This document shows, one piece after another, positions 47,031-48,285 of a DNA stretch of 64,000 bases; within the stretch, counting starts at the first letter, position 1, and each line of letters begins with the position of its first letter. This stretch comes from Escherichia phage phiWec186. The notes under the pieces were generated by a model. It was given only the letters and a program-made list of their open reading frames with translations, did not search any database and had not been told where the DNA came from. The stretch lies in sequence record LC739535.1; one strand, written 5' to 3'. The translations under genes and the position numbers were made by a program.

Positions 47031-47387
47031 ATGAGCAGTCTTGATCATAACATTTGTTACCAACCTCTCACCTGGATTGGTGAGGGTCATTATGCGCAAC
47101 GTGTTATCGTCTGTGCTGCGAATAAGTATATTCTGAATAATGGTGAAGAGTTAATTATCCCTTGCGTTCGACATGCAAATCCTGTACTATATGCACAGTT
47201 AAGCGTGTTGAAAGAAGCAGGTGTGATCAGCAAAACTTTGTGCACGCCAGATAATCAAGGCTTTATCGATCAGTATTACAATTGGTGGAGTCGTGAGGAT
47301 GCTTACATCATCGCGGAAAATGCTGACCAGATTGACCATGATCGTAATGGTCACGACCATGAACTATTTAGCGAGGGATTATACTAA
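47031..47387 (+). CDS. hypothetical early protein
   Basis: ATG at 47031 preceded by AAGGAGAAA. Confidence 0.45.
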   Translation: MSSLDHNICYQPLTWIGEGHYAQRVIVCAANKYILNNGEELIIPCVRHANPVLYAQLSVLKEAGVISKTLCTPDNQGFIDQYYNWWSREDAYIIAENADQIDHDRNGHDHELFSEGLY

Positions 47388-47932
47388 TGTTTATTACAAG
47401 CGATTTGCATTTTATGCATAAACGTATTCGAGAGTTTGCTCCTGAATATCGTCCGTGGGAAGATATGGACCACATGACAGAAGCCCTGATTGAAGCATGG
47501 AACAAATGTGCTACTACTCCTGGTGTTAAGATGTGGCATTTGGGCGACTTCTGTTTCGGGACTGAAGAAGATACCCGTAAGATTGCTTCCCGTCTGCAAG
47601 GGGATATCACTTATCTTGTTGGGAACCATGATTACAGCAAGCACCGAGAAGTGCTCGCAGAGTATGGTGAAGTGGTGTATTATGACGAAGTGAAATACCA
47701 GAAGTTGTTCTTCGTCTTAAGTCATTACCCTATTGCCTCCTGGAACAAACAGGGTCGCGGTAGCATAATGCTCCACGGACATTCTCACGGATCTTTCCCT
47801 GATGAAGCCTACGGTAAGATGCTTGATGTTGGTTGGGATGCACATGGCAAGATTCTGCACTTTGATGAAGTTATTGAGATGATGGAAAAACGTGAAGTTA
47901 TCACTGTTGACCATCACAAAATTATCCGATAA
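47387..47932 (+). CDS. calcineurin-like metallophosphoesterase (phosphodiesterase/phosphatase)
   Basis: Motifs SDLHFMH (DxH), LGDFCFG (GD), VGNHDY (GNHD/E), GHSHG (GHxH). Confidence 0.65.
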   Translation: MFITSDLHFMHKRIREFAPEYRPWEDMDHMTEALIEAWNKCATTPGVKMWHLGDFCFGTEEDTRKIASRLQGDITYLVGNHDYSKHREVLAEYGEVVYYDEVKYQKLFFVLSHYPIASWNKQGRGSIMLHGHSHGSFPDEAYGKMLDVGWDAHGKILHFDEVIEMMEKREVITVDHHKIIR

Positions 47933-47946
47933 AAGGGGGAGCACTA

Positions 47947-48285
47947 ATGGAAAAAATTAGAATTGATGTTTTTGATGCAAACATTTGGGTTTACTTCAGT
48001 CTGGAAGAATATCTTGAGGACTTCCCTCACCGTAAAACTAAAAATTTTTCGGTAACAAAGGCATTTGCGACAGTTGAAAGTGTAGGTCCGTGTATGTTAT
48101 ACATTGCAGAACCGACACCAGAACTTGTGACACACGAAGCGATTCACACCGCGTGGGATATTCTTGACCATGTGGGTGTTAAGGTTTATTACGAAAATCA
48201 TGAAGCGTTAGCCTATATCACAGAGTACATTGTTGCTGAAACTTTGAAACTGTGGTCAAACAGAAATGTTGGTGAAGGCATTTAA
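47947..48285 (+). CDS. small HExxH-motif protein (putative minimal zinc metallopeptidase)
   Basis: VTHEAIHTAW contains HEAIH; 112 aa. Confidence 0.4.
   Translation: MEKIRIDVFDANIWVYFSLEEYLEDFPHRKTKNFSVTKAFATVESVGPCMLYIAEPTPELVTHEAIHTAWDILDHVGVKVYYENHEALAYITEYIVAETLKLWSNRNVGEGI

What the first reader, a model, noticed from the sequence alone, without database searches (positions are those of the whole stretch)
47387..48285. Metallophosphoesterase and HExxH mini-protein as adjacent early genes
A 181-aa calcineurin-like phosphoesterase with a full DxH / GD / GNHD / GHxH motif set is followed by a 112-aa protein with an HEAIH zinc-binding motif. Small early hydrolases are candidates for degrading host nucleotide second messengers or host proteins; the sequence cannot show which.
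Basis: inference. Interest (0 to 1): 0.45.

Follow-up and report, generated by a model that had tools for sequence, protein, structure and literature searches.

The report
Orphaned RNA-repair phosphoesterase beside swapped-in mini-zincin
Both genes are real, but they are not a conserved pair: the phosphoesterase is what remains of a common phage RNA-repair gene cassette, and the small HExxH protein is a horizontally acquired, uncharacterised zinc-protease-like gene sitting where the RNA ligase and kinase genes are in related phages.

Summary
The window is identical to E. coli phage phiWec181 (Stephanstirmvirinae). It has a 181-aa metallophosphoesterase (MPE, 47387-47932) with all five catalytic motifs, and a 112-aa HExxH protein (47947-48285).

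The MPE belongs to a phage family whose only recurrent conserved neighbours are an Rnl1-type RNA ligase (32 of 80 diverged viral loci) and a PNK-type P-loop kinase (20 of 80). Control genes co-occur in 0-2 loci, or 9 for DNA ligase. Most relatives, such as ESCO13, have the order cREC - phrog_839 - MPE - RNA ligase - kinase. This is a heal-and-seal RNA repair cassette already predicted in the literature for rV5-like phages.

In the phiWec lineage the ligase and kinase are absent from the whole genome. phiWec188/190 have nothing in the slot. phiWec179/181 and PsgM04F carry a clean ~357-bp HExxH cassette there. The MPE is still under purifying selection (dN/dS 0.04).

The HExxH protein belongs to a large phage family with no Pfam model (8,657 cluster representatives). 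H63, E64, H67 and E86 are invariant. The fold is confidently predicted and zincin-like, with no PDB relative. The family has no conserved partner and co-occurs with the MPE in 0 of 80 loci.

The second-messenger reading is not excluded but has no specific support. The finding is of modest interest.

The parts
46531..46875 (+). cREC protein (cyclic-phosphate-processing receiver-like domain). It is the upstream member of the conserved module.
   Evidence: Pfam PF20274 cREC_REC at E 1.2e-16, 61.5 bits against a gathering score of 27. It is 95% identical to ESCO13 gp120. The predicted 2',3'-cyclic phosphate role comes from PMC7824862 and PMC9503650.
47031..47387 (+). phrog_839 protein of unknown function (118 aa from the annotated ATG). 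Its stop codon overlaps the MPE start codon (ATGA).
   Evidence: PHROG phrog_839 at E 1.2e-47. It is 92% identical to ESCO13 gp118. It co-occurs with the MPE only in close relatives, in 1 of 80 diverged loci.
47387..47932 (+). Calcineurin-like binuclear metallophosphoesterase, 181 aa. Predicted nucleic-acid (RNA) 3'-end healing phosphoesterase.
   Evidence: Motifs I-V are invariant. phrog_547 matches at E 1.9e-55. 1XM7 matches at E 6.7e-24. Rnl1 is a neighbour in 32 of 80 viral loci and the kinase in 20 of 80. dN/dS is 0.04 against phiWec188.
47933..48288 (.). Variable slot, here the inserted cassette. Homology to ESCO13 and phiWec188 breaks exactly after the MPE stop codon and resumes just before the RBS of the next gene.
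   Evidence: Pairwise blastn of the three states of the site. ESCO13, vB_Ec-G1 and SKA64 carry RNA ligase + ATPase here, and phiWec188/190 carry nothing.
47947..48285 (+). 112-aa stand-alone zincin-like HExxH...E protein (phrog_1365 family).
   Evidence: H63, E64, H67 and E86 are invariant. The AF2 model has pLDDT 92.9; HExxH lies on helix 58-75 and E86 starts helix 86-109. BFVD matches include PolyVal metallopeptidase, Metalloprotease, IrrE and SprT-like entries. There is no PDB match.
48300..48626 (+). Coiled-coil 'hol-like' protein. This is the conserved downstream flank of the slot, not part of the enzymology.
   Evidence: phrog_18076 at E 1.6e-47. It is 88% identical to ESCO13 gp114.
49441..50556 (+). 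ATP-dependent DNA ligase (context gene, relevant to the DNA-end-processing rival).
   Evidence: Pfam DNA_ligase_A_M at E 3.4e-10. It co-occurs with the MPE family in 9 of 80 viral loci.

Best explanation
The two genes are not a functional unit.

The 181-aa protein is an active binuclear metallophosphoesterase. Its phage family normally serves as the 3'-end 'healing' enzyme of a heal-and-seal RNA (tRNA) repair cassette. The inferred pathway runs as follows. [quoted passage not shown] The cREC protein and/or the MPE open and remove the cyclic or 3' phosphate to give a 3'-OH. A PNK-type P-loop kinase phosphorylates the 5'-OH. An Rnl1-type ligase seals the break.

In the phiWec ('Wecvirus') lineage the ligase and kinase genes have been lost from the genome. 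The MPE, cREC and phrog_839 genes are retained under purifying selection. Here the MPE therefore most likely still hydrolyses 2',3'-cyclic or 3'-phosphate ends (or related phosphoesters), but without phage-encoded sealing.

The slot vacated by the ligase and kinase holds a horizontally acquired 112-aa gene in phiWec179/181. Its product is a minimal zincin-like protein. H63 and H67 on one helix and E86 at the start of the next helix are placed to bind zinc, and E64 would act as the general base. It belongs to a very large, uncharacterised, phage-restricted family that moves between genomes as a stand-alone accessory gene. It is most likely a small metallopeptidase acting on a host or phage protein.

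Shown: gene structure, motifs, family conservation, gene linkage, cassette boundaries, loss of the ligase and kinase, and purifying selection. Inferred: substrates and all enzymatic activities.
For: Identity of the genome: the 3-kb stretch queried (46500-49500) is 100% identical to phiWec179 and phiWec181, and the window start maps to phiWec181 position 90521, so the window corresponds to 90521-154520.

MPE:
- Catalytic motifs are invariant in 72 homologs.
- In 80 viral loci with MPE homologs of only 33-44% identity, an ESCO13-type RNA ligase lies within 5 kb in 32. All 32 are on the same strand, 17 are within 260 nt, and the ligase is upstream in some and downstream in others.
- The P-loop kinase is present in 20 of the 80 loci, and either partner in 35.
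- Control genes from the window co-occur in 0-2 loci, and DNA ligase in 9.
- Loci without that ligase still have RtcB (2), Rnl2-type RNA_ligase (1), AAA_33 kinases (3), cREC (1) and PTH2 (1) among the +-2 neighbours.
- Partner identities are confirmed: PF09511 RNA_lig_T4_1 at 56 bits, and PF13671 AAA_33 at 40.8 bits.
- cREC lies 0.5 kb upstream.
- The same gene set in rV5-type phages was predicted to be RNA repair (PMC9503650).
- MPE-domain end healing has a biochemical precedent in CthPnkp and lambda phosphatase (PMC2190708).

Loss and swap:
- ESCO13, vB_Ec-G1 and SKA64 have MPE-Rnl-ATPase.
- phiWec188 has the MPE directly followed by the next gene.
- tblastn finds no ligase or kinase homolog anywhere in phiWec181.
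- The breakpoints fall at gene boundaries.
- MPE dN/dS is 0.04 between the two ligase-less species.

HExxH protein:
- H63, E64, H67 and E86 are invariant.
- The family has 8,657 representatives at E<=1e-3 and 1,641 at E<=1e-10.
- The AF2 model has pLDDT 92.9 with a beta-sheet + HExxH helix + Glu helix. This matches the zincin core described in PMC5512222.
- BFVD Foldseek hits include annotated metallopeptidases.
- Recurrent sub-threshold Pfam hits are to zincin families: SprT-like in 11 of 88 members, plus DUF5700, M76, DA1-like and MPTase-PolyVal.
Against: - No activity was measured for either protein.
- The MPE family profile does not hit CthPnkp or lambda phosphatase in the PDB, even at E<=10. 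Its only clear structural relative is an uncharacterised Aquifex protein. It is therefore not in the clade with proven RNA end-healing activity.
- 45 of the 80 viral loci, and all 80 bacterial loci, lack the ESCO13-type Rnl1 ligase and kinase that tblastn looked for. A few of the viral loci carry other RNA-repair genes instead.
- In this phage, removing the 3' phosphate with no kinase or ligase present cannot complete repair, and would even block ligation by the host RtcB. Purifying selection on the orphan MPE argues for some other or additional substrate.
- No Pfam family reaches threshold for the HExxH protein.
- The metal-site geometry of the model could not be inspected.
Confidence: 0.55

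Rival explanations
1. The MPE is an anti-defence phosphodiesterase that destroys host nucleotide second messengers. Candidates are cyclic mono-, di- or oligonucleotides, 2',3'-cNMPs and cADPR-type signals. It may also remove 2',3'-cyclic-phosphate-terminated RNA fragments that act as alarm signals.
For: The MPE is retained under strong purifying selection (dN/dS 0.04) in phages that have lost the ligase and kinase. It therefore has a function that does not need sealing.

Weak profile matches include the cyclic-nucleotide phosphodiesterases Rv0805/Icc and YfcE. Iyer et al. propose that phage calcineurin-like and cyclic-phosphate-processing enzymes could quench such signals (PMC7824862).
Against: No result here links this family to signalling-based defence. 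There is no PADLOC hit. The only recurrent conserved neighbours are RNA ligase and kinase. The matches to cyclic-nucleotide PDEs have E values of 0.2-0.9, which is not significant.
Confidence: 0.17
2. The MPE is a DNA-end processing enzyme, a 3'-phosphatase or nuclease like PdeM or the 3'-phosphatase role of T4 PseT on DNA. It would work with the conserved ATP-dependent DNA ligase 1.5 kb downstream during replication or repair.
For: There is a weak NCBIfam hit to the ligase-associated phosphoesterase PdeM (E 0.0028, 17 bits). DNA ligase co-occurs within 5 kb in 9 of 80 viral loci, more than other controls. The DNA ligase is retained in all three states of the locus. This would explain why the MPE is kept without the RNA ligase.
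Against: The PdeM score is far below its cutoff of 150 bits. Six of the 9 DNA-ligase loci also carry the RNA ligase. The RNA ligase linkage is 3-4 times more frequent and usually directly adjacent.
Confidence: 0.13
3. The MPE and the HExxH protein form a new two-gene module. One version: a protease that inactivates a host RNA-cleaving effector, plus a phosphatase that cleans up the ends. This would functionally replace the ligase and kinase.
For: The HExxH cassette occupies exactly the ligase/kinase slot.

The closest HExxH homologs (45-64% identity) lie immediately upstream of an unrelated PNKP-type HAD 3'-phosphatase, and the two genes usually overlap. This is seen in Xuquatrovirus-like phages (PTXU04, Bas95, L182, L183). 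So the HExxH gene sits next to an RNA-repair-type phosphatase in two independent lineages.
Against: - There are only two independent adjacencies.
- A close member of the same lineage (L184) lacks the HAD gene.
- phiWec188/190 keep the MPE without the HExxH gene.
- The wider HExxH family mostly sits at the lysis/terminase/portal junction or in other unrelated contexts.
- It co-occurs with the MPE family in 0 of 80 loci.
Confidence: 0.08
4. The MPE is a protein Ser/Thr/Tyr phosphatase like lambda phosphatase, acting on host phosphoproteins.
For: The MPE superfamily includes lambda phosphatase. Early phage genes often modify host proteins (general knowledge).
Against: The family profile does not detect lambda phosphatase or any PPP-family chain at E<=10. 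The genome already has a separate gene that GenBank annotates as a serine/threonine protein phosphatase and that matches Pfam Metallophos (L093 8673-9410). Gene linkage points to nucleic-acid ends instead.
Confidence: 0.04

Closest known systems
RNA end-healing metallophosphoesterase domain of bacterial Pnkp (Clostridium thermocellum Pnkp/Hen1 system) and lambda phosphatase
   Same: Both have the binuclear calcineurin-like MPE motif set. In relatives of this phage the MPE is genetically coupled to a P-loop 5'-kinase and an RNA ligase, giving the same three activities as the kinase-MPE-ligase fusion in CthPnkp. The expected chemistry is also the same: 2',3'-cyclic phosphodiesterase plus 3'-phosphomonoesterase (PMC2190708).
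   Different: Here the MPE is a stand-alone 181-aa protein rather than a domain of a fusion. Sequence searches find no similarity to CthPnkp or lambda phosphatase. In this particular phage the kinase and ligase partners are absent.
T4 Pnkp (PseT) + Rnl1 tRNA repair pathway against PrrC
   Same: The logic and two components match in relatives: an Rnl1-family ligase (PF09511) and a PNK-type kinase next to a 3'-phosphoesterase, in a phage that also carries its own tRNA genes.
   Different: The T4 3'-phosphatase is a HAD (DxDxT) domain fused to the kinase. Here an unrelated MPE, together with a cREC protein, takes that place. phiWec181 has lost the seal and kinase steps.
rV5/Mydo-type predicted RNA-repair neighbourhood (sirtuin, T4-like tRNA ligase, cREC, nucleotide kinase, MazG, occasional calcineurin-like phosphoesterase; Iyer et al. 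2022, PMC9503650)
   Same: The gene set in this related myovirus group matches. cREC, the MPE and a MazG-like gene are in the window. A SIR2 gene lies elsewhere in the genome. The ligase and kinase are present in sister phages.
   Different: That description is purely computational. In phiWec181 the ligase and kinase are missing, and the sirtuin lies about 32 kb away rather than adjacent.
Aquifex aeolicus aq_1665 (PDB 1XM7)
   Same: It is the only solved structure with significant sequence similarity to the MPE family (profile E 6.7e-24). It is also a small stand-alone MPE of similar size (195 aa).
   Different: It is a structural-genomics protein of unknown function, so it gives no information on substrate. 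The alignment covers only residues 1-118.
Zincin-like metallopeptidases of phage and plasmid conflict systems (MPTase-PolyVal, SprT-like, IrrE/ImmA M78)
   Same: The HExxH motif lies on a helix, followed by a helix carrying the conserved Glu, and preceded by a small beta-sheet (PMC5512222). BFVD structural matches to entries annotated this way have E values from 4e-5 to 1e-2. Sub-threshold SprT-like hits occur in 11 of 88 members.
   Different: It is a stand-alone 105-150-aa protein, not a domain of a polyvalent protein. No Pfam family reaches threshold. No solved zincin matches the model. It has no adjacent HTH repressor as ImmA/IrrE has. SprT uses a third His ligand, whereas this family conserves Glu.

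Membership tests
Calcineurin-like metallophosphoesterase superfamily | Five metal-binding/catalytic motifs: DxH, GD, GNH(D/E), H, GHxH | tested here: met
   D6-x-H8, G53-D54, G79-N80-H81-D82, H113 and G131-H132-x-H134 are present and invariant in 72 homologs.
Calcineurin-like metallophosphoesterase superfamily | Significant match to a curated family model or to a solved MPE structure | tested here: met
   phrog_547 matches at E 1.9e-55. 1XM7 matches at E 2.4e-6 for the single sequence and 6.7e-24 for the profile. Homologs carry precomputed PF12850/PF00149 hits. The window protein itself scores 22.5 bits against Pfam Metallophos_2, below the gathering score of 27.
Pnkp-type RNA end-healing phosphoesterase (heal-and-seal RNA repair) | Fusion or operonic linkage with a 5'-OH polynucleotide kinase and an RNA ligase | tested here: inconclusive
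   The feature is met for the family: Rnl1 in 32 of 80 diverged viral loci and the kinase in 20 of 80, and directly adjacent in ESCO13, vB_Ec-G1 and SKA64. It is not met in this genome, where no ligase or kinase homolog exists anywhere in phiWec181.
Pnkp-type RNA end-healing phosphoesterase (heal-and-seal RNA repair) | Membership of the lambda-phosphatase/CthPnkp MPE clade by sequence | tested here: not met
   The profile search of the PDB at E<=10 lists 1XM7, GpdQ-like, YfcE, Rv0805 and Nuclease MPE chains, but no CthPnkp or lambda phosphatase chain.
Pnkp-type RNA end-healing phosphoesterase (heal-and-seal RNA repair) | 2',3'-cyclic phosphodiesterase and 3'-phosphomonoesterase activity on RNA ends | not testable with these tools
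   This needs enzyme assays. The precedent for MPE domains is in PMC2190708.
Zincin-like (gluzincin-type) metallopeptidase | HExxH on an alpha-helix, with both His and the Glu conserved | tested here: met
   H63, E64 and H67 are invariant in 88 and 112 homologs. The motif lies in predicted helix 58-75.
Zincin-like (gluzincin-type) metallopeptidase | Third metal ligand (Glu) on the following helix, with a beta-sheet preceding the active-site helix | tested here: met
   E86 is invariant, lies 19 residues after H67, and is the first residue of helix 86-109. Four strands precede the HExxH helix. This is the core architecture described in PMC5512222. The side-chain geometry of the model could not be inspected.
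Zincin-like (gluzincin-type) metallopeptidase | Significant sequence or structure similarity to an established zincin | tested here: inconclusive
SprT-like family (PF10263) | Score above the Pfam gathering threshold | tested here: not met
   The window protein has no hit at E<=1. The best E value among 88 homologs is 0.0094.
Known phage cyclic-nucleotide-degrading anti-defence enzymes (Acb1 2H phosphoesterase; Apyc1 MBL-fold) | 2H or metallo-beta-lactamase fold | tested here: not met
   The protein is a calcineurin-like MPE by motifs and profile matches. That Acb1 and Apyc1 have those other folds comes from established knowledge, not a test run here.
Known anti-phage defence system components (PADLOC) | Match to a PADLOC-DB model | tested here: not met
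   No hits at E<=0.01 for the MPE, HExxH, cREC or phrog_839 proteins.

The most novel reading that the evidence does not exclude
The mini-zincin may be a functional substitute for the ligase and kinase. Instead of resealing cleaved tRNA, the phage would use a small metalloprotease to destroy the host RNA-cleaving effector or its activator. A 3'-phosphoesterase would deal with the cyclic-phosphate ends or signals. This would explain two things: why the HExxH gene sits exactly in the ligase/kinase slot here, and why its closest homologs are translationally coupled to an unrelated PNKP-type HAD 3'-phosphatase in Xuquatrovirus-like phages that show no ligase or kinase nearby.

More broadly, the family of about 8,600 representatives would then be a new class of stand-alone phage counter-defence proteases.
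Probability: 0.08. Interest if true: 0.7.

Novelty: new member of a known kind. Interest (0 to 1): 0.3.

Why it matters
The MPE adds little that is new. It is already annotated as a metallophosphoesterase in GenBank, and the cREC / ligase / kinase / calcineurin-like neighbourhood of rV5-like phages has already been predicted to be RNA repair.

Two points have some value.

- The phiWec lineage is a natural 'ligase- and kinase-less' variant that keeps the MPE, cREC and phrog_839 genes under purifying selection. These healing enzymes therefore have a role beyond preparing ends for the phage's own ligase. Comparing ESCO13-type, phiWec188-type and phiWec179-type phages on hosts with tRNA-targeting defences would test this directly.
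- The HExxH protein represents a very large phage-specific family with no Pfam model. It has an invariant HExxH...E site and a confident predicted fold, but no solved relative and no known function. It is a reasonable target for structural and functional work, though nothing here shows what it cleaves.

Tried and rejected
- Pfam, NCBIfam and PADLOC scans of the HExxH protein gave nothing.
- Sequence and profile searches of the PDB for the HExxH family gave no hit even at E<=10. The single-sequence neuroglobin hits at E~1 are noise.
- I looked for a conserved genomic partner of the HExxH family in 80 IMG/VR loci and 8 metagenomic look-ups. Contexts are heterogeneous: the lysis/terminase/portal junction in temperate phages, and early regions elsewhere. 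The idea that it is generally phosphatase-linked was reduced to two independent lineages with one counter-example.
- I looked for fusions in longer family members (P0059, P0060, P0062). No domains were found.
- I searched the whole phiWec181 genome for a relocated RNA ligase or kinase and found none.
- Bacterial homologs of the MPE were examined for RNA-repair neighbours. None were found, and their contexts are generic and uninformative.
- The promoter/terminator scan meant to support 'early' expression was at chance level.
- A first genome-contig scan with the broad alignment failed for lack of a conserved pattern. It was repeated with a narrower alignment.
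Full report
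**1. Observation.**

The 181-aa protein carries D6-L-H8, G53-D54, G79-N80-H81-D82, H113 and G131-H132-S-H134. The 112-aa protein has H63-E-A-I-H67. Both genes have strong ribosome-binding sites.

The 3-kb stretch queried (46500-49500) is 100% identical to Escherichia phages phiWec179 and phiWec181. The window start maps to phiWec181 (LC739534) position 90521, so the window corresponds to 90521-154520. These phages are myoviruses of the Stephanstirmvirinae, proposed genus 'Wecvirus' (PMC12695924). GenBank annotates the first gene as 'metallophosphoesterase' and the second as 'hypothetical protein'.

'Early' expression could not be checked from sequence. The promoter scan is at chance level, 24 sites against 21.2 expected. 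The genes do lie in the long co-directional block that also holds DNA ligase, MazG, exonucleases and polymerase.

**2. The phosphoesterase.**

It matches PHROG 547 'phosphoesterase' at E 1.9e-55. It scores below threshold on Pfam Metallophos_2, 22.5 bits against 27. In a 72-sequence alignment of homologs down to 37% identity, all five MPE motifs are invariant, so it is almost certainly catalytically competent.

Its only significant relative in the PDB is the uncharacterised Aquifex protein aq_1665, 1XM7 (E 2.4e-6 for the sequence, 6.7e-24 for the profile). At E<=10 the profile touches GpdQ-like, YfcE, Rv0805 and 'Nuclease MPE' chains. It does not touch lambda phosphatase or C. thermocellum Pnkp.

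**3. Genomic context gives the main result.**

In typical relatives (ESCO13, vB_Ec-G1, SKA64) the order is as follows:
- cREC
- a small ORF
- phrog_839
- MPE
- RNA ligase
- ATPase
- 'hol-like' protein
- further downstream, ATP-dependent DNA ligase

The ligase is an Rnl1-family enzyme (PF09511, 56 bits). The ATPase is an AAA_33 PNK-type kinase (40.8 bits). The upstream gene in the window is a cREC domain protein (PF20274, E 1.2e-16). That family is predicted, but not shown, to open 2',3'-cyclic phosphates (PMC7824862, PMC9503650).

I tested whether the MPE-ligase-kinase linkage is more than shared ancestry. I fetched 80 IMG/VR loci encoding MPE homologs of only 33-44% identity and found the following:
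- 32 have an ESCO13-type RNA ligase within 5 kb. All are on the same strand, 17 lie within 260 nt, and the ligase is upstream in some and downstream in others.
- 20 have the kinase.
- 35 have either partner.

As a control, 15 other window genes co-occur in 0-2 of the loci and DNA ligase in 9, of which 6 also have the RNA ligase.

In loci lacking that ligase, the +-2 neighbours still include RtcB (2), Rnl2-type RNA_ligase (1), AAA_33 kinases (3), cREC (1) and PTH2 (1). In contrast, 80 bacterial loci of the same MPE family have no such partners and only generic neighbours. The linkage is therefore phage-specific.

Together with the biochemical precedent for MPE-domain RNA end healing (PMC2190708), the best reading is that this phage MPE family supplies the 3'-end healing step of a heal-and-seal RNA repair cassette. 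The same neighbourhood was already predicted to be RNA repair in rV5-type phages (PMC9503650).

**4. In this phage the cassette is truncated.**

tblastn with the ESCO13 ligase and kinase finds nothing in the window or in the rest of phiWec181. The slot between the MPE and the 'hol-like' gene exists in three states:
- ligase + kinase, in every relative whose annotation was inspected (ESCO13, vB_Ec-G1, SKA64) and, judging from the feature lists and match pattern, in most of the other 121 matching phage records
- nothing, in phiWec188 and phiWec190
- the HExxH gene, in phiWec179, phiWec181, PsgM04F and one IMG/VR contig

Homology between the states breaks precisely after the MPE stop codon and resumes just before the next gene's RBS. 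The HExxH gene is thus a clean ~357-bp cassette, 47933-48288.

The MPE is nevertheless under strong purifying selection between the two ligase-less species: dN/dS 0.04, from 21 synonymous and 4 non-synonymous changes. The cREC gene gives 0.08. The MPE therefore has a role that does not depend on a phage ligase or kinase.

**5. The HExxH protein.**

It matches only PHROG 1365, of unknown function. It has no Pfam, NCBIfam or PADLOC hit. Only 15 GenBank phage records hold a detectable homolog.

Profile searches reveal a very large family:
- 378 clusters at 90% identity
- 8,657 representatives at 50% identity with E<=1e-3, of which 1,641 have E<=1e-10
- among the 150 best-scoring representatives listed, nearly all are stand-alone proteins of 100-150 aa

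H63, E64, H67 and E86 are invariant. A69, W70, L73, G77, N84, L88 and Y90 are nearly so.

AlphaFold2 with the 88-sequence alignment gives a confident model, pLDDT 92.9 and pTM 0.84. It has four strands, two short helices, helix 58-75 bearing the HExxH, and helix 86-109 starting with E86. This is the zincin core described for phage and plasmid MPTases: a beta-sheet, an HExxH helix, then a helix with the Glu ligand (PMC5512222).

Structural and sequence comparisons give a mixed picture:
- Against predicted viral structures it matches many uncharacterised small phage proteins at TM 0.6-0.83.
- It also matches entries annotated 'PolyVal metallopeptidase superfamily domain' (E 4e-5), 'Metalloprotease' (3e-4), IrrE (1e-2), SprT-like (1e-2) and BepA (6e-2).
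- Sub-threshold Pfam hits across members are enriched in zincin families: SprT-like in 11 of 88, DUF5700 in 3, M76 in 2, DA1-like in 2 and MPTase-PolyVal in 1.

I conclude it is a minimal zincin-like protein and probably a metallopeptidase. Its substrate is unknown.

**6. Is the HExxH protein functionally tied to the MPE?**

Across 79 viral loci falling into 25 clusters at 60% identity, the family mostly lies after the endolysin and Rz genes and before the terminase, or between terminase and portal. Elsewhere it sits in assorted early regions. It never co-occurs with this MPE family in the 80 diverged MPE loci.

One observation is worth recording. The closest homologs (45-64% identity) lie immediately upstream of a PNKP-type HAD 3'-phosphatase, usually overlapping it. 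This is seen in PTXU04, Bas95, Pondi-like phages and the metagenomic contigs L182 and L183 (PF25109). These all belong to one deeply diverged syntenic lineage, and a close member of it (L184) lacks the HAD gene. There are thus only two independent adjacencies to RNA-repair-type phosphatases of unrelated folds. I treat this as a low-probability lead, not a finding.

**7. Verdict.**

- The 'pair' is an accident of cassette exchange at a variable slot.
- The MPE is a known kind of phage gene, best explained as an RNA 3'-end healing enzyme of a repair cassette that has been orphaned in this lineage.
- The HExxH protein is a member of a large, uncharacterised phage mini-zincin family.
- The second-messenger interpretation has no specific support but is not excluded for the orphan MPE.

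Interest is modest. The useful leads are the natural ligase-less variants, and the uncharacterised zincin family with no solved structural relative.

Noticed in passing
window 46531-46875 (+): This gene encodes a cREC_REC (PF20274) domain protein at E 1.2e-16. The family is predicted in the literature to process 2',3'-cyclic phosphates or cyclic ADPr, but has not been characterised experimentally. It is retained under purifying selection (dN/dS about 0.08-0.12) even in the ligase-less phages.
   Followed up: partly
window 47031-47387 (+): This 118-aa phrog_839 protein has no known function and no Pfam, NCBIfam or PADLOC hit. Its stop codon overlaps the MPE start codon (ATGA), which suggests translational coupling. 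It accompanies the MPE only in close relatives, in 1 of 80 diverged loci.
   Followed up: partly
L004 (NC_048193, phage PTXU04) 3792-4318: RefSeq annotates two short CDSs here, gp61 (3792-4061) and gp60 (4139-4318). A 113-aa GTG-start ORF at 3977-4318 aligns over its full length with the HExxH family. The homolog therefore appears to be mis-annotated or split in that record.
   Followed up: partly
window 49441-50556 and 50967-51695 (+): The phiWec179 GenBank record calls both genes 'hypothetical protein'. They are an ATP-dependent DNA ligase (PF01068, E 3.4e-10) and a MazG/PRA-PH-like pyrophosphohydrolase (PF01503).
   Followed up: yes
window 40506-42563 (-): A cluster of 10 tRNA genes (Met x2, Ile, Pro, Gln, Gly, Thr, Tyr, Ser, Arg) lies just upstream of the divergent early block. 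Phage tRNAs have been proposed to replace host tRNAs cut by anticodon nucleases (PMC10264068). That could compensate for the lost ligase and kinase. ESCO13 has a somewhat different tRNA set.
   Followed up: no
L093 (phiWec181 record) 1-3127, 8673-9410, 15686-16486: Outside the window, the phage genome carries dTDP-rhamnose pathway genes (rfbA/C/D-like, with a partial dTDP-glucose dehydratase at the record start). It also has a second Metallophos gene (PF00149), which GenBank annotates as a serine/threonine protein phosphatase, and a SIR2 sirtuin. The sirtuin fits the rV5-type 'sirtuin RNA-repair' gene set but lies about 32 kb from the MPE.
   Followed up: partly
L184 1004-1465: This HExxH-family member (153 aa) has a low-complexity C-terminal extension of about 45 aa. 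Unlike its 76%-identical relative in L183, it is not followed by the HAD_PNKP phosphatase gene.
   Followed up: partly
L186-L265 (bacterial and archaeal genomes): The same MPE family occurs in Acidobacteria, Alphaproteobacteria, Paenibacillus, Planctomycetes and some archaeal MAGs. None of these loci has RNA-ligase or kinase neighbours. In Paenibacillus the gene sits next to a ComM/Mg-chelatase-like ATPase. The cellular role of the family is unknown.
   Followed up: partly
window 48300-48626 (+): PHROGs labels this coiled-coil protein 'hol-like chemotaxis' (phrog_18076). Its only other hits are weak ones to coiled-coil families and to LmuB/PbeC in PADLOC (E~1e-3). These most likely reflect coiled-coil composition rather than homology.
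   Followed up: no
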